A DNA stretch of 64,000 nt, taken from NCBI RefSeq assembly GCF_055900595.2, contig NZ_CM148325.1. The stretch is one strand, 5' to 3'. Numbering within the stretch: the first letter of the stretch is position 1; every line of letters begins with the position of its first letter. Under the pieces are notes generated by a model. It was not told the DNA's origin and searched no databases. It saw only the letters and a program-made list of their open reading frames with translations. This document shows, piece after piece, positions 5,989-64,000 of the stretch. A program made the position numbers and the translations under genes.

Positions 5989-7440
5989 TCATTCACGCCA
6001 GAAAGTCGGGGTAAAGAGCACCAGCAATGTAAAGACCTCGAGACGACCAAACAGCATATTGGCAATCAGGATCCATTTAGCCACCGGGTTCATACTGGTA
6101 AAGTTATCAGCAACCACGCCAAGCCCTGGCCCCAGGTTATTCAATGTCGCAACAACCGAGGCAAAGGCAGAAAAGTCATCCACACCCGTGGCGATAATCG
6201 CCAGCATACTGACGATAAACACCAGGGCATAAGCGGAGAAAAATCCCCAAACAGCTTCGAGGATACGTTCCGGCAGTGCGCGATTCCCCAGCTTAATGCT
6301 GTAAACGGCGTTCGGATGCACCAGTCGTTTCAGCTCACGGTTCCCCTGCTTAAACAGCAGCAGAATGCGGATCACTTTCAGGCCACCGCCCGTAGACCCG
6401 GCGCAACCGCCAATAAATGCTGAACATAAAAGCAGTACCGGCAAAAAGAGCGGCCAGCGGGCAATGCTGTCAGTCGTAAACCCGGCGGTTGTCGCCATCG
6501 ACACCACCTGGAAAAACGCCTGGTTAATTGTCATCAGCGCCGAACTATAGACATTATGAAACCACAGCACGAGGGTACAAATAACCACCAGCGTAAACTG
6601 TACGCCGATAAACATGCGAAATTCCGGATCGCGCCAATAAACCTTCAGACTACGCCCACTTAACAGCGAAAAGTGCAGACCGTAGTTACAGCCGGAGATC
6701 AGCAGGAAGATAGCAATGATAGTGTTAATAGTCGGGCTGTCGAAATAACCGATACTGGCATCATGTGTCGAGAAGCCGCCAATAGCGATAGTCGCAAAGC
6801 TATGGCCGATGGCATCAAAGGCATCCATTCCGGCAAACCACAACGCCAGCGCACAGGCGACGGTCAGCAAGACATAAATCAACCACAGGGTTTTCGCCGT
6901 TTCCGCAATTCGCGGGCGCATTTTGTTATCTTTCAGCGGGCCGGGCATTTCCGCGCGATAGAGCTGCATCCCACCCACGCCGAGGATAGGCAGTATCGCA
7001 ACCGCCAACACGATGATCCCCATCCCGCCAAACCATTGCAGCATCTGGCGATAAAAGAGGATTGCGTGAGGAAGTGTATCCAGTCCCACCAGCGTAGTGG
7101 CCCCCGTGGTAGTCAGACCGGAGAAAGATTCAAAAAACGCATCGGTAATCGTGAGGTTTGGGCTTTCCGAAAAGATAAAAGGGAGCGCACCGACGCTACC
7201 CAACACGGTCCAGAACAGCACCACTATCAGAAACCCTTCACGGGATTTCAGTTCGCCCTTTTCTTTACGGTTCGGCCACCACAGCATAGAACCAATGGCA
7301 AGGGCGACAAAAAAGGTCTGGGTAAAGGCGCGGCCCGCACCATCCCGGTAGATGAGTGCTACCAGCCCAGGGATAATCATGGTCCCTGAAAATAAGATGA
7401 CCAGTAGTCCAACAATTCGGGTAATGGCGCGAAAATGCAT
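5989..7440 (-). CDS. trkH: Trk-system potassium uptake protein
   Basis: 483-aa polytopic membrane ORF starting MHFRAITRIVGLLVILFSG…; synteny with hemG and pepQ. Confidence 0.9.
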   Translation of the reverse strand: MHFRAITRIVGLLVILFSGTMIIPGLVALIYRDGAGRAFTQTFFVALAIGSMLWWPNRKEKGELKSREGFLIVVLFWTVLGSVGALPFIFSESPNLTITDAFFESFSGLTTTGATTLVGLDTLPHAILFYRQMLQWFGGMGIIVLAVAILPILGVGGMQLYRAEMPGPLKDNKMRPRIAETAKTLWLIYVLLTVACALALWFAGMDAFDAIGHSFATIAIGGFSTHDASIGYFDSPTINTIIAIFLLISGCNYGLHFSLLSGRSLKVYWRDPEFRMFIGVQFTLVVICTLVLWFHNVYSSALMTINQAFFQVVSMATTAGFTTDSIARWPLFLPVLLLCSAFIGGCAGSTGGGLKVIRILLLFKQGNRELKRLVHPNAVYSIKLGNRALPERILEAVWGFFSAYALVFIVSMLAIIATGVDDFSAFASVVATLNNLGPGLGVVADNFTSMNPVAKWILIANMLFGRLEVFTLLVLFTPTFWRE

Positions 7441-60814: not shown

Positions 60815-62020
60815 ATGACGGAACAAGAAAAAACCTCCGCCGTGGTTGAAGAGACCAGGGAGGCCGTGGACACCACGTCACAACCTGTCGCAACAGAAAA
60901 AAAGAGTAAGAACAATACCGCATTGATTCTCAGCGCGGTGGCTATCGCTATTGCTCTGGCGGCGGGCGTCGGTTTGTATGGCTGGGGTAAACAACAGGCC
61001 GTCAATCAGACTGCCACCAGCGATGCCCTGGCTAACCAACTTACGGCACTGCAAAAAGCCCAGGAGAGCCAAAAAGCCGAGCTGGAAGGCATTATCAAGC
61101 AACAAGCTGTACAGCTTGAGCAAGCGAATCGTCAGCAAGAAACGCTGGCAAAACAGCTGGATGAAGTCCAACAAAAGGTCGCGACTATTTCCGGCAGCGA
61201 TGCTAAAACCTGGCTGCTGGCTCAGGCTGATTTCCTGGTGAAACTCGCCGGAAGGAAGCTGTGGAGCGATCAGGACGTCACGACCGCTGCAGCGTTGCTG
61301 AAAAGTGCAGATGCCAGCCTGGCGGATATGAATGACCCGAGTCTGATTACCGTTCGTCGGGCAATTACCGATGATATCGCCAGCCTTTCTGCGGTATCGC
61401 AGGTGGATTATGACGGCATCATCCTTAAGCTGAACCAGCTTTCTAATCAGGTAGATAACCTGCGTCTGGCCGATAATGACAGCGATGGTTCACCAATGGA
61501 TTCCGACGGTGAAGAGCTTTCCAGTTCCCTCAGCGAATGGCGTATCAATCTACAAAAAAGCTGGCAGAACTTTATGGACAACTTCATTACGATTCGCCGT
61601 CGTGATGACACCGCCGTACCACTGTTAGCACCGAATCAGGATATCTATCTGCGCGAAAATATTCGCTCCCGCCTGCTGGTCGCGGCACAAGCCGTACCGC
61701 GTCATCAGGAAGAGACTTACCGCCAGGCGCTGGAGAATGTCTCCACCTGGGTACGTGCTTACTACGATACTGATGATGCCACCACCAAAGCGTTCCTCGA
61801 CGAGGTGGACCAGTTAAGTCAGCAAAATATCTCGATGGATCTCCCGGAAACCCTGCAAAGCCAGGCGATGCTGGAAAAACTGATGCAGACCCGCGTGCGT
61901 AACCTGCTGGCACAACCGGCAGCAGGGACAACGGAAGCTAAACCTGCACCTGCACCTGCACCTGCACCTGCACCTGCACCGCAAGCTGATACTCCGGCAG
62001 CCGCGCCGCAAGGAGAATAA
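60815..62020 (+). CDS. hemX: HemX (uroporphyrinogen-III C-methyltransferase-like membrane protein)
   Basis: 401 aa starting [24 protein letters not shown]…; single TM segment, coiled-coil, C-terminal (PA)n tract. Confidence 0.9.
61943..61972 (+). repeat. tandem hexanucleotide repeat (CCTGCA)x5 inside hemX
   Basis: Five perfect CCTGCA units plus one degenerate unit (CCGCAA), encoding the Pro-Ala tract [13 protein letters not shown]. Confidence 0.9.
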
Positions 62021-62022
62021 CC

Positions 62023-63219
62023 ATGCTAAAAGTGTTATTGCTCTTTGTGTTGCTGATTGCGGGGATCGTGGTCGGCCCGATGATTGCCGGTCATCAGGGG
62101 TACGTGCTGATCCAGACCGATACCTACAATATCGAAACCAGCGTCACGGGCCTGGCGATCATTTTGATTCTGGCGATGGTAGTGCTGTTTGCCATTGAGT
62201 GGCTACTGCGGCGGATCTTCCGCACAGGCGCACACACCCGTGGGTGGTTTGTCGGACGTAAGCGTCGCCGTGCCCGTAAGCAGACCGAACAGGCGCTGCT
62301 GAAACTAGCGGAAGGCGATTATCAGCAAGTTGAAAAGCTGATGGCGAAAAATGCCGATCACGCTGAACAACCGGTGGTGAACTATCTGCTGGCTGCCGAA
62401 GCCGCGCAACAACGCGGTGATGAAGCACGCGCCAACCAACATCTGGAACGCGCAGCGGAGCTGGCCGGCAACGACACAATTCCGGTAGAAATCACCCGTG
62501 TACGTCTGCAACTGGCCCGTAATGAAAACCATGCAGCACGTCACGGCGTTGATAAGCTGCTGGAAGTTACGCCACGCCATCCGGAAGTATTACGTCTGGC
62601 GGAACAGGCGTATATCCGCACCGGTGCATGGAGTTCGCTGCTGGATATCATCCCATCAATGGCAAAAGCCCACGTTGGCGATGAAGAGCATCGTGCAATG
62701 CTGGAACAACAGGCATGGATTGGCCTGATGGATCAGGCGCGTGCCGATAACGGTAGCGAAGGTTTGCGTAACTGGTGGAAAAACCAAAGCCGGAAAACGC
62801 GTCATCAGGTGGCGTTACAGGTGGCAATGGCGGAACATCTTATTGAATGTGACGATCATGATACTGCCCAGCAAATTATCATCGACGGCCTGAAACGCCA
62901 GTATGACGATCGCCTGCTGCTGCCGATCCCGCGTCTGAAAACCAATAACCCGGAACAGCTGGAAAAAGTGCTGCGCCAACAGATCAAAAACGTGGGCGAT
63001 CGCCCGTTGTTGTGGAGCACACTGGGTCAGTCGCTGATGAAGCACGGCGAATGGCAGGAAGCATCGCTCGCCTTCCGCGCGGCGCTGAAACAACGTCCGG
63101 ACGCCTACGATTACGCATGGCTTGCCGACGCGCTGGACAGACTGCACAAGCCGGAAGAAGCCGCAGCGATGCGTCGCGATGGCTTGATGCTAACCTTACA
63201 GAATAACCCGTCACAGTAA
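62023..63219 (+). CDS. hemY: HemY (TPR-containing heme biosynthesis-associated membrane protein)
   Basis: 398 aa starting MLKVLLLFVLLIAGIVVGPMIAGHQGYVLIQTD…. Confidence 0.92.
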   Translation: MLKVLLLFVLLIAGIVVGPMIAGHQGYVLIQTDTYNIETSVTGLAIILILAMVVLFAIEWLLRRIFRTGAHTRGWFVGRKRRRARKQTEQALLKLAEGDYQQVEKLMAKNADHAEQPVVNYLLAAEAAQQRGDEARANQHLERAAELAGNDTIPVEITRVRLQLARNENHAARHGVDKLLEVTPRHPEVLRLAEQAYIRTGAWSSLLDIIPSMAKAHVGDEEHRAMLEQQAWIGLMDQARADNGSEGLRNWWKNQSRKTRHQVALQVAMAEHLIECDDHDTAQQIIIDGLKRQYDDRLLLPIPRLKTNNPEQLEKVLRQQIKNVGDRPLLWSTLGQSLMKHGEWQEASLAFRAALKQRPDAYDYAWLADALDRLHKPEEAAAMRRDGLMLTLQNNPSQ

Positions 63220-63223
63220 TCTA

Positions 63224-63252
63224 TATCGCCTCGTTCAGAGGCGATATTTTTT
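63224..63252 (+). terminator. rho-independent terminator of the hemCDXY operon
   Basis: TATCGCCtcgttcagaGGCGATA followed by TTTTTT, immediately after the hemY stop. Confidence 0.7.
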
Positions 63253-63258
63253 ACCAGG

Positions 63259-63858
63259 ATGTCAAAATTGCGCACGCCGTCCCGCTATCTTTTCCGCTTG
63301 CCATCGCATGAAATTACTCCTTTTCGGGCAACGCTCTTTTTAATCTTGTTGATATGTGCCGCTCTGGCTGGCGTAAGTTGGCTGATTATTTCCTTTGTGC
63401 GTACGGGCAATACATTCATCTTCTGGTTAACACTTTTTATTGGGTATCTGATAGCTGCGGCGAAGCAGGAAAAAATCAAGCTCCTCAAGAAGTACCGAAT
63501 CATGGCAGATAAACGTCGGGTACGCTCCATTTGCCAGTTCGCCCGCGAATTTGACACCTACACCGTAGATACATGGGTGATTCGTGCGGTGTGGGATACC
63601 TTGCAAGGAAACGGCTATATCGATTACCCACTGCCACTGAAAGCCGATGATATACTGGACGATGATCTGGATTTGGTGCGCGACGCAGTCGAGTTAGAAG
63701 AGCTGGTTGAAGATACCGCTGCTCGTTGCGGGCGCGATCTATGCGGAATAGAAGAGAATCCGTTTCTTCCCATCGTCACGGTAGGCTCTCTTGTAAGAGT
63801 TTTAAACGCGCAACCGATGACCCAGGAGCGACGTAACCAGTTCTTTATTCGGTCATAA
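63259..63858 (+). CDS. hypothetical membrane-anchored protein with acidic C-terminal domain
   Basis: 199-codon ORF; predicted two TM helices (ATLFLILLICAALAGVSWLIISF; FIFWLTLFIGYLIAAA) then an acidic region (DDILDDDLDLVRDAVELEELVED); weak or absent RBS at the first ATG, so the real start is uncertain. Confidence 0.4.
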   Translation: MSKLRTPSRYLFRLPSHEITPFRATLFLILLICAALAGVSWLIISFVRTGNTFIFWLTLFIGYLIAAAKQEKIKLLKKYRIMADKRRVRSICQFAREFDTYTVDTWVIRAVWDTLQGNGYIDYPLPLKADDILDDDLDLVRDAVELEELVEDTAARCGRDLCGIEENPFLPIVTVGSLVRVLNAQPMTQERRNQFFIRS

Positions 63859-64000
63859 AAAAACGCCTGCTCTTATTACGGAGCAGGCGTTAAAACAGGT
63901 CTGTATGACAACAAGTGGGTGCTTCACTCAACGTTGTGTCCATGGTGTCTGATGAGGCATAAGCGACATCTGTCAGTGGACGATAAGCACCGTAAACGGC
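63859..64000 (-). ncRNA. glmZ: small RNA GlmZ (3' portion; 5' end beyond window)
   Basis: Reverse complement of the window end matches my recollection of the GlmZ 3' half, including the terminator AACGCCTGCTCCGTAATAAGAGCAGGCGTTTTTT; location next to hemY agrees with the known hemY-aslA intergenic position. Confidence 0.75.

What the first reader, a model, noticed from the sequence alone, without database searches (positions are those of the whole stretch)
63253..63866. 199-codon ORF wedged between the hemY terminator and the glmZ 3' end
The ORF begins 7 bp after the hemY terminator T-run and its stop codon abuts the glmZ terminator, leaving no obvious room for a promoter or RBS. It encodes a predicted two-TM protein with a highly acidic C-terminal region. 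I do not recall a protein-coding gene between hemY and glmZ in K-12, so this may be an inserted or strain-specific gene, or an unannotated one. Its position next to glmZ also raises the possibility of read-through interplay.
Basis: partly seen in the sequence, partly recalled or inferred. Interest (0 to 1): 0.5.

Follow-up and report, generated by a model that had tools for sequence, protein, structure and literature searches.

The report
Membrane-anchored serine-less ACP-like accessory gene
The ORF between hemY and glmZ is a real gene, present in about 13% of complete E. coli genomes (including ST131) and absent from K-12, that encodes an inner-membrane protein whose cytoplasmic domain has the acyl-carrier-protein fold but lacks the serine needed to carry anything, and its function is untested.

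Summary
An intact ORF fills the gap between the hemY terminator and the glmZ terminator, and K-12 has only a 47-bp spacer there.

Corrections:
- The true start is TTG 63268 (196 aa), not ATG 63259. It is ATG in the ST131-type allele and GTG in a 57%-identical ortholog.
- An AGGA Shine-Dalgarno lies 8 nt upstream, so there is room for an RBS.
- RefSeq already annotates the gene as "hypothetical protein".
- It is ancestral, not inserted. The same hemY–ORF–glmZ/aslA arrangement occurs in E. albertii and in a more distant enterobacterium, so K-12-type strains probably lost it.

The gene is present in 693 of 5426 complete E. coli genomes, as two alleles. dN/dS is 0.31 between alleles and 0.12–0.16 against the distant ortholog.

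The family is large (about 1000 clusters at 50% identity), has no Pfam, NCBIfam, PADLOC or PHROG match, always stands alone, and has no conserved neighbour.

The most likely function is a membrane-tethered, non-carrier ACP-like interaction module. Its partner and physiological role are unknown.

The parts
62023..63219 (+). hemY CDS, the upstream gene (context)
   Evidence: ORF list. PGAP annotation of an identical stretch in NZ_CP098223.1.
63223..63252 (+). hemY intrinsic-terminator-like hairpin (63223-63247) plus T-run (to 63252)
   Evidence: Terminator scan. RNA fold of 63205-63300 gives -24.5 kcal/mol, z -4.0. Conserved in the ST131-type allele and in E. albertii.
63256..63259 (+). Shine-Dalgarno AGGA, 8 nt upstream of the TTG start
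   Evidence: Read from the sequence. The ST131-type allele has AAGGA and ortholog L036 has AGGAG at the same place.
63268..63858 (+). CDS of the 196-aa protein (TTG start). The in-frame ATG at 63259 gives the 199-aa form that some annotations use.
   Evidence: PGAP CDS in L001 maps to 63268-63858. The start codon at this position is TTG, ATG or GTG in three orthologs. The family N-terminus begins M-[RK]-x-P-S-R. dN/dS is 0.12-0.31.
63331..63462 (+). Two-helix membrane hairpin: TM1 at residues ~22-44, short loop RTGNT, TM2 at residues ~50-65. Predicted N-in/C-in.
   Evidence: Hydropathy and charge counts: N-terminus +4, loop +1, juxtamembrane 66-87 +10. AF2 helices 18-46 and 49-82.
63470..63475 (+). 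A6 run, a recurrent frameshift site in relatives
   Evidence: Located. E. albertii has A5 here and a split ORF. E. coli variants P0026 and P0037 leave the frame right after KQEK.
63529..63816 (+). Cytoplasmic ACP-fold domain, residues ~88-183: an extra helix alpha0 (FAREF) followed by a four-helix ACP-like bundle
63682..63693 (+). D139-A140-V141-E142, the position equivalent to the ACP D-S-L-D phosphopantetheine site. The serine is replaced by alanine.
   Evidence: hhalign of the family profile against E. coli AcpP aligns D35-S36-L37-D38 with D139-A140-V141-E142. Ser frequency at this column is 0.10 across 153 sequences.
63857..64000 (-). glmZ sRNA gene, 3' two-thirds (5' end cut by the window). 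Terminator hairpin at 63862-63891. Convergent with the ORF.
   Evidence: Rfam RF00083, 139 bits, E 1.4e-35. Terminator scan. 100% identical in ORF-less genomes.

Best explanation
What it is. Window 63268-63858 (+) is a functional accessory protein-coding gene. It is ancestral to the hemY-glmZ interval of Escherichia and has been lost from K-12-type E. coli.

Expression.
- Translation starts at TTG 63268, preceded by an AGGA Shine-Dalgarno.
- The gene has no recognisable promoter of its own. It is inferred to be transcribed from the hemCDXY operon by read-through of the hemY terminator.
- Its mRNA ends at, or runs through, the convergent glmZ terminator.

Product. The 196-aa protein is predicted to insert into the inner membrane as a two-helix hairpin with both ends in the cytoplasm.
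- The N-terminal end is a short, highly conserved peptide (M-R-x-P-S-R-x-M-P).
- The C-terminal end is a ~100-residue domain with the four-helix acyl-carrier-protein fold preceded by an extra conserved helix.

How it probably works.
- The serine that carries phosphopantetheine in every true ACP is Ala140 here, and is mostly Asp, Pro or Glu in relatives. The domain therefore cannot act as an acyl or peptidyl carrier.
- The most likely mode of action is inferred, not shown. It would be a membrane-tethered ACP-like protein-interaction module.
- It would use its acidic helix II face and the conserved Arg/Asp positions (R83, R106, D101, D128, R153, R156) to bind, recruit or compete for a partner at the cytoplasmic face of the inner membrane.
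- It possibly works as a dimer.
- The partner and the physiological role are unknown.
For: Gene reality
- The ORF is intact in 693 of 5426 genomes, as two alleles: 104 genomes at >=95% and 589 at ~88% nucleotide identity, the latter including O25b:H4-ST131. It occurs at one place per genome. It was annotated as a single CDS in 39 of 40 sampled rows.
- dN/dS is 0.31 between alleles and 0.12-0.16 against the L036 ortholog.
- The profile search found 1057 clusters at 50% identity with E<=1e-3, of which 787 have E<=1e-10.

Start and RBS
- TTG, ATG and GTG occupy the same codon in three orthologs, and L036 has no upstream in-frame start.
- The family N-terminus is M(92%)-[RK]-x-P-S(97%)-R(93%).
- AGGA, AAGGA or AGGAG lies 7-8 nt upstream.

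Ancestral locus
- The same position downstream of hemY is occupied in E. albertii and in L036.
- In L036 the gene is followed directly by the glmZ terminator.
- An E. fergusonii homolog exists, B7LU57.
- No repeats or tRNA flank the gene.
- GC is 48.9% against 52.3% for the window.
- The family is absent from the phage collection. The plasmid collection gave only one weak partial match.

Topology: two hydrophobic helices and a positive-inside charge pattern.

Non-carrier status
- S36 of AcpP aligns with A140.
- Ser frequency is <=0.10 in all columns 131-146.
- There is no PF00550 or other Pfam hit and no NCBIfam hit.

Stand-alone status
- No neighbour family is shared across 28 loci beyond within-lineage synteny.
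- In Kosakonia, Superficieibacter and an Enterobacteriaceae MAG the gene sits 20-37 nt after rlmC, again at the tail of an upstream gene.

Precedent for a prosthetic-group-independent ACP function at the membrane: Therisod & Kennedy 1987, title as cited in the reference list of PMC9542644.
Against: - No expression evidence of any kind is available here: no TSS, ribosome profiling or proteomics.
- A stable, canonical-looking terminator lies only 15 nt upstream of the start codon and no promoter-like site was found. The gene may therefore be poorly expressed.
- This allele uses a weak TTG start.
- Selection is clearly weaker than on hemY (omega 0.31 against 0.01-0.03).
- Most E. coli have lost the gene.
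- It is frameshifted in E. albertii and in some E. coli at an A6 run. It is therefore dispensable.
- The interaction-module mechanism rests only on fold, charge and the missing serine. No partner is indicated by gene neighbourhood.
- Sequence similarity to ACPs is not statistically significant (E 0.27-1, hhalign probability 3.8%). The Ser-equivalent assignment therefore depends on a weak alignment, although it is consistent across methods.
Confidence: 0.65

Rival explanations
1. The ORF is a decaying relic: still open in some lineages, no longer doing anything useful, and on its way to deletion.
For: - Absent from 87% of complete E. coli genomes.
- Frameshifted in E. albertii and in some E. 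coli clusters.
- Within-species omega (0.31) is higher than between genera (0.12-0.16).
- This allele has a TTG start, and there is a terminator directly upstream with no promoter.
Against: - pN is significantly below pS even between the two E. coli alleles.
- Both alleles stay full length in 693 genomes, and nearly all sampled rows are annotated as one CDS.
- The family motifs (N-terminal PSR, FAR-F, D101, D128, R153/R156, NP, Q182) are all retained in this protein.
Confidence: 0.15
2. It is a single-gene conflict or defence element, for example an abortive-infection-type membrane effector with an ACP-like sensor, or an orphan immunity protein.
For: - Sporadic, stand-alone distribution.
- In several non-enteric genomes it lies in island-like contexts next to HigB/RelE toxins, an MqsA-type antitoxin, a SLATT-domain protein, an integrase fragment or a transposase-like ORF (the last judged by eye only).
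- The architecture, a small membrane anchor plus a small cytoplasmic domain, is common among such effectors (general knowledge).
Against: - No hit in PADLOC or PHROGs.
- No phage homologs, only one weak partial plasmid match, and no viral structural match.
- In Enterobacteriaceae the gene is stably syntenic between core genes (hemY|glmZ, rlmC|artJ) across genera. That is unlike fast-turnover defence genes.
- No conserved toxin partner.
Confidence: 0.1
3. The physiologically relevant product is a soluble ~118-aa ACP-like protein made from the internal Met79 (MADKR...), as annotated in E. albertii.
For: - RIMAD is conserved in all Escherichia-type orthologs, including L036.
- E. albertii and Escherichia sp. 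E2586 are annotated with exactly this 118-aa product after the frameshift.
Against: - Position 79 is Leu in 74% of the family and Met in 9%.
- There is no good Shine-Dalgarno before the ATG at 63502.
- The N-terminal motif and both TM helices are conserved family-wide and under purifying selection (omega 0.27 and 0.20 for codons 1-80).
Confidence: 0.05
4. It is a recently inserted, horizontally acquired gene (a mini-island) specific to some strains.
For: - Presence/absence polymorphism exactly between the hemY stop and the glmZ terminator.
- Slightly lower GC (48.9% against 52.3%).
- Allele dS (0.29) exceeds that of flanking hemY (0.15).
Against: - The same locus is occupied in E. albertii and in a 57%-identical ortholog.
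- No direct or inverted repeats, tRNA or integrase.
- Essentially absent from plasmids and absent from phages.
Confidence: 0.05

Closest known systems
Acyl carrier proteins / PP-binding domains (AcpP, Pfam PF00550)
   Same: - Acidic start of helix II and a conserved Asp at the D35 position.
- A conserved T-V ... L-V helix IV pattern that aligns with AcpP ITTVQAAIDYI.
   Different: - No Ser at the DSL site: Ala here, and Ser in only ~10% of relatives.
- No significant sequence or Pfam match.
- The C-terminal half of helix II is basic (R153-x-G-R156) instead of acidic.
- An extra conserved helix alpha0 (I-C-x-F-A-R-x-F).
- Fused to a two-TM membrane anchor and a conserved N-terminal peptide.
- Never found next to fatty-acid, polyketide or NRPS genes or a phosphopantetheinyl transferase.
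Prosthetic-group-independent role of E. coli ACP in membrane-derived oligosaccharide (OPG) synthesis (Therisod & Kennedy 1987, cited in PMC9542644)
   Same: An ACP fold acting purely as a protein cofactor for an inner-membrane process, without phosphopantetheine. This is the nearest functional analogy for a Ser-less, membrane-located ACP-like domain.
   Different: That activity belongs to the normal soluble AcpP. Nothing links the present family to OPG synthesis. The analogy comes from the literature and was not tested here.
ACPs used as structural or adaptor subunits of membrane complexes (mitochondrial complex I NDUFAB1/SDAP; AcpM bound to MmpS5L5, PDB 9rfu)
   Different: They keep the serine and are soluble proteins. 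In the mitochondrial cases they use their acyl-phosphopantetheine arm to bind LYR partners (general knowledge). The present protein is itself membrane-anchored and has no arm.
RefSeq 'hypothetical protein' WP_032304174.1 / WP_001260226.1; UniProt A0A192CFN8 (E. coli O25b:H4) and B7LU57 (E. fergusonii)
   Same: These are the same gene, at 80-100% identity.
   Different: None of these records carries a name, domain or function.

Membership tests
Acyl carrier protein / PP-binding (PF00550) | Four-helix ACP fold | tested here: met
   [not shown]
Acyl carrier protein / PP-binding (PF00550) | Conserved Asp-Ser-Leu motif whose Ser carries 4'-phosphopantetheine (definition from PMC9542644) | tested here: not met
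   AcpP D35-S36-L37 aligns with D139-A140-V141. The family column has Ser in 10% and D, P or E in most members. No column in 131-146 exceeds 10% Ser.
Acyl carrier protein / PP-binding (PF00550) | Significant match to the Pfam or NCBIfam ACP profiles | tested here: not met
   No PP-binding hit at E<=10 for the protein or for any of 18 relatives. No NCBIfam ACP model matched. PDB profile hits to ACP reach only E 0.27-1.
Acyl carrier protein / PP-binding (PF00550) | Actual phosphopantetheinylation and acyl loading | not testable with these tools
   Needs mass spectrometry or an in vitro AcpS/Sfp assay.
Acyl carrier protein / PP-binding (PF00550) | Genomic association with FAS, PKS, NRPS or PPTase genes | tested here: not met
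   No such neighbour was shared among 28 loci. The neighbours are hemY/glmZ, rlmC/artJ, or miscellaneous.
The uncharacterised 2TM + ACP-like family found here (no database name) | N-terminal M-[RK]-x-P-S-R motif, two TM helices, the S-I-C-x-F-A-R-x-F-D ... V-D-T-W-V-I-R-A-V block, R-x-G-R-x-L, and N-P ... T-V ... L-V ... Q-P | tested here: met
   All of these are present in the window protein. The phmmer and profile searches recover 58 and 1057 relatives.
Known anti-phage defence proteins (PADLOC-DB 2.0.0) / phage protein families (PHROGs v4) | Profile match | tested here: not met
   0 families matched at E<=1 in either library.
Mobile-element cargo (island, prophage or plasmid gene) | Flanking repeats, integrase or tRNA, or presence on plasmids or phages | tested here: not met
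   No flanking repeats or tRNA. The only plasmid-collection match is a weak partial hit on a Pseudoalteromonas 801-kb replicon, and there are no phage hits.

The most novel reading that the evidence does not exclude
The family is a widespread, so far undescribed class of membrane-tethered 'pseudo-ACPs'. These would be serine-less ACP mimics that regulate or scaffold an ACP-dependent inner-membrane process, such as phospholipid, lipid A or OPG synthesis or acyl-ACP recycling. They would act by competing with, or substituting for, AcpP at its docking site. Its presence in ExPEC lineages such as ST131 and its loss from K-12-type strains would then mark a lineage difference in envelope lipid homeostasis.
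Probability: 0.15. Interest if true: 0.6.

Novelty: new variant of a known kind. Interest (0 to 1): 0.38.

Why it matters
The gene sits in a very well-studied interval (hemCDXY / glmZ) but is invisible in K-12. It has therefore never been examined, even though it is carried by major pathogenic lineages such as O25b:H4-ST131.

It also gives a first structural handle on a large protein family (about 1000 clusters at 50% identity across Proteobacteria, Planctomycetes and other phyla) that has no Pfam or NCBIfam model.

If the serine-less, membrane-tethered ACP-like domain proves to be an ACP mimic or adaptor, it would add a new kind of regulator to bacterial lipid and envelope metabolism. If not, it remains an ordinary lineage-variable hypothetical gene.

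For annotation, the result fixes the start codon. It also shows that the K-12 arrangement is the derived one.

Tried and rejected
- **Family libraries.** Pfam, NCBIfam, PADLOC and PHROGs scans of the protein and of 18 relatives gave nothing significant. The weak Adenine_glyco, SpoIIGA and AaeB hits fall on the TM region and were dismissed as hydrophobic noise.
- **PDB sequence and profile search.** Only sub-threshold ACP hits were found.
- **Conserved operon partner.** All-against-all BLAST of ORFs in 28 loci found none. The 'conserved' antisense ORFs are shadows of the gene itself.
- **Apparent long N-terminal fusions.** The 445-aa ORF in L018, the 294-aa ORF in L032 and the extension in P0164 are over-extended ORFs in 64-71% GC genomes. 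The true starts are at the M-[RK]-x-P-S-R motif.
- **Promoter search.** The tool scan and a looser hexamer scan of my own over 62700-63275 and the orthologous regions found only poor, non-conserved candidates. I considered a TATTTT -10 inside the terminator T-run driving a leaderless mRNA from ATG 63259. I rejected it because there is no -35 or extended -10 and the ATG is absent from L036.
- **Mobile-element signatures.** None were found.
- **Plasmid, phage and viral-structure searches.** Negative or only weak ACP hits.
- **Literature.** Searches by accession, by hemY+glmZ and by 'ACP-like / immunity / serine-less' wording found nothing on this gene.
- **Invariant Cys89 as an alternative acyl-attachment site.** Rejected as a family feature because about 10% of relatives have Gly there, and P0064, P0113 and P0133 lack it.

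Full report
**1. What is in the sequence**

The window carries hemX (60815-62020) and hemY (62023-63219) on the + strand.
- A 10-bp G+C-rich hairpin at 63223-63247 followed by TTTTTT looks like an intrinsic terminator. The region 63205-63300 folds at -24.5 kcal/mol, z = -4.0 against shuffles.
- An ORF then runs from ATG 63259, or TTG 63268, to TAA 63856-63858.
- Rfam finds glmZ (RF00083, 139 bits, E 1.4e-35) on the - strand from the window end down to 63857. Its terminator hairpin is at 63862-63891.
- The ORF stop codon therefore overlaps the complement of the glmZ U-tail.

**2. Comparison with other E. coli**

Against 5426 complete E. coli genomes, the glmZ part of the query is found in virtually all of them at ~100% identity. 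The ORF is found in only 693, always once per genome.
- 104 genomes carry the window-type allele at >=95% identity.
- 589 genomes carry a second allele at ~88% nucleotide identity. These include O25b:H4-ST131 and O2:H6 strains.
- PGAP annotates both alleles as 'hypothetical protein', WP_032304174.1 and WP_001260226.1. All cluster members in public collections carry the same non-name.
- The K-12 derivative J53 and another ORF-less strain have a 47-bp spacer with a different hairpin and no T-run between the hemY stop and the glmZ terminator.

**3. Is it a real gene, and where does it start?**

Evidence for purifying selection:
- The two E. coli alleles differ at 34 synonymous and 39 non-synonymous sites. 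dS is 0.29, dN is 0.09 and omega is 0.31.
- Against a 57%-identical ortholog from a metagenomic enterobacterial contig (L036), omega is 0.12-0.16.
- Both halves of the gene are constrained.
- hemY next door is far more constrained, with omega 0.01-0.035.

So this is a fast-evolving gene that is nonetheless clearly under purifying selection.

Evidence for the start codon:
- PGAP starts the CDS at the position equivalent to 63268.
- That codon is TTG here, ATG in the ST131-type allele and GTG in L036. L036 has no in-frame start upstream.
- AGGA, AAGGA or AGGAG lies 7-8 nt upstream.
- In 153 aligned sequences the protein begins M-[RK]-x-P-S-R-x-M-P, with S5 at 97% and R6 at 93%.

The 199-codon reading from ATG 63259, which some database entries also use, is therefore probably three codons too long.

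The internal Met79 is Leu in 74% of relatives, so it is not a conserved alternative start.

No sigma-70-like promoter was found upstream. By inference, the gene is transcribed by read-through from hemCDXY. Its homologs in Kosakonia, Superficieibacter and an Enterobacteriaceae MAG likewise sit 20-37 nt behind rlmC.

**4. Inserted or lost?**
- The same hemC-hemD-hemX-hemY-ORF-aslA-aslB order is found in E. albertii.
- hemCDXY-ORF, followed directly by the glmZ terminator, is found in L036.
- An 80%-identical protein exists in E. fergusonii, AFDB B7LU57. Its locus was not checked.
- No flanking direct or inverted repeats and no tRNA were found.
- GC is only slightly below the window average.
- The family is essentially absent from the plasmid and phage collections.

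The parsimonious reading is that the gene is ancestral at this locus and was deleted in the lineage leading to K-12-type strains.

The gene is also decaying in places. E. albertii has lost one A from the A6 run at 63470-63475, which splits the ORF. Some E. coli clusters (P0026, P0037) leave the frame at the same spot.

**5. What the protein is**

No Pfam, NCBIfam, PADLOC or PHROG family matches.

Homology searches give:
- 58 relatives by word-indexed phmmer.
- 1057 clusters at 50% identity by an exhaustive profile search, 787 of them with E<=1e-10.
- A genome scan and AFDB place members in Enterobacteriaceae, Pseudomonas, Motilimonas, Burkholderiales, Methylotenera, Woeseiaceae, an alphaproteobacterium, Sulfurovum, Planctomycetes and an Armatimonadetes MAG.

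All members have one architecture of about 175-200 aa:
- The conserved N-terminal peptide.
- Two hydrophobic helices.
- A basic juxtamembrane stretch.
- A conserved C-terminal domain.

Charge distribution (N-terminus +4, loop +1, residues 66-87 +10) predicts both termini in the cytoplasm.

Structure:
- AlphaFold2 with an 18-sequence alignment gives a confident model, pLDDT 87 and pTM 0.77.
- Sequence-profile matches to ACPs are the best PDB hits but are not significant.

**6. Not a carrier**

ACPs are defined by the Asp-Ser-Leu motif, whose serine carries phosphopantetheine. Changing that serine abolishes modification (PMC9542644).
- hhalign of the family profile against E. coli AcpP aligns D35-S36-L37-D38 with D139-A140-V141-E142 of this protein.
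- HMMER alignments to two other ACPs use a register within a few residues of this one.
- The family has Ser in only 10% of sequences at that column, and never more than 10% in any column from 131 to 146.
- The alignment score itself is weak. The register is supported by agreement between methods and by the fold match, not by statistics.
- The second half of helix II, which is acidic in ACPs, carries the nearly invariant R153-x-G-R156.
- The domain has an extra N-terminal helix with the I-C-x-F-A-R-x-F motif.

The protein therefore shares the ACP fold but fails the defining chemical feature of ACPs.

**7. How it probably works**

Shown or directly predicted:
- It is a conserved, translated-looking gene.
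- It has a cytoplasmic ACP-fold domain tethered to the inner membrane by a helical hairpin.
- It has no phosphopantetheine site.
- It has no conserved genomic partner.

Inferred:
- It acts through protein-protein contacts as a membrane-tethered ACP-like module.
- The only precedent I can cite for an ACP acting without its prosthetic group at the E. coli membrane is its role in membrane-derived oligosaccharide synthesis (Therisod & Kennedy 1987, title cited in PMC9542644).
- One relative (P0064) encodes two complete units in tandem, a weak hint that the unit works as a dimer.

I put about 0.9 on 'real gene encoding a 2-TM, Ser-less ACP-fold protein'. I put about 0.3-0.4 on the interaction-module idea in general, and far less on any particular partner.

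**8. Rivals**
- *Decaying relic.* This fits the losses, the frameshifts, the weak start and the upstream terminator. It does not fit the purifying selection and the retained family motifs.
- *Defence or conflict role.* Island-like contexts in some non-enteric genomes suggest it: HigB/RelE, an MqsA-type antitoxin and a SLATT protein. Against it are the negative PADLOC, PHROG, phage and viral-structure searches and the long-term synteny between core genes in Enterobacteriaceae.
- *Recent insertion, and a soluble product from Met79.* Both are unlikely for the reasons given above.

**9. glmZ interplay**

The glmZ sequence and terminator are identical in ORF-bearing and ORF-less genomes.
- On the + strand the shared hairpin is followed by only UU, so ORF or hemY transcripts may run antisense into glmZ.
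- K-12's hemY 3' hairpin also lacks a T-run, so this is not specific to the ORF.
- Nothing here tests it.

**10. Verdict**

The finding is real and mostly correctly described. It is an already-annotated, uncharacterised accessory gene rather than a new or inserted one.

Its modest interest lies in the fold assignment (a membrane-tethered, serine-less ACP-like domain), in the size of the unnamed family, and in its presence in ST131-type E. coli but not K-12.

Noticed in passing
window 63470-63475: An A6 run inside the ORF is a recurrent frameshift site. E. albertii has A5 here, which splits the gene into 102-aa and 167-aa (annotated 118-aa) ORFs. E. coli protein clusters P0026 and P0037 go out of frame right after KQEK. 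This could be simple decay or slip-strand on/off switching.
   Followed up: partly
window 63268-63858 versus 62023-63219 and 63857-64000: Synonymous divergence between the two E. coli alleles of the ORF (dS 0.29) is about twice that of adjacent hemY (0.15). glmZ immediately downstream is 100% identical across strains. hemY itself is unusually divergent for E. coli (dS 0.15-0.20 between window, ST131-type and K-12). This suggests old haplotypes or recombination at this locus.
   Followed up: no
window 60815-62020 (hemX 3' end): hemX ends in an (Ala-Pro)n repeat ([15 protein letters not shown]). The hemX CDS length varies among strains: 1182, 1188, 1194 and 1206 nt in four RefSeq genomes.
   Followed up: no
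L003 2957-3003 (K-12-type spacer; replaces window 63220-63856): ORF-less E. coli have a 47-bp spacer with a hairpin CCCGGAGG-CAAGCA-CCTCCGGG and no T-run. hemCDXY transcripts there have no canonical terminator of their own before the convergent glmZ terminator.
   Followed up: partly
L015 927-1355 (Motilimonas eburnea): The gene directly upstream of the family member encodes a protein with a signal-peptide or lipobox-like N-terminus. It also has an ACP-like domain (NCBIfam ACP models, E 7e-6, below cut-off) in which the DSL position appears by eye to read D-V-L, so it is serine-less too. This is a single case.
   Followed up: no
P0064 (354 aa, metagenomic): Two complete, divergent units of the family (each with TM hairpin and ACP-like domain) are encoded head-to-tail in one ORF. 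This may be a true fusion or two adjacent genes with a lost stop. It hints at dimeric function.
   Followed up: no
L005, L011, L012, L013 (match at ~6001-6600): In Kosakonia, Superficieibacter and other Enterobacteriaceae the 34-41%-identical homolog occupies a different fixed slot, between rlmC and artJ, 20-37 nt after rlmC. There are therefore two stable chromosomal 'homes' for the family in Enterobacteriaceae.
   Followed up: partly
L007 6001-6582 (Pseudomonas solani): The homolog lies two genes from glmS (LysR regulator, then glmS-glmR-glmU-atpC). This is probably unrelated to the glmZ adjacency in E. coli.
   Followed up: no
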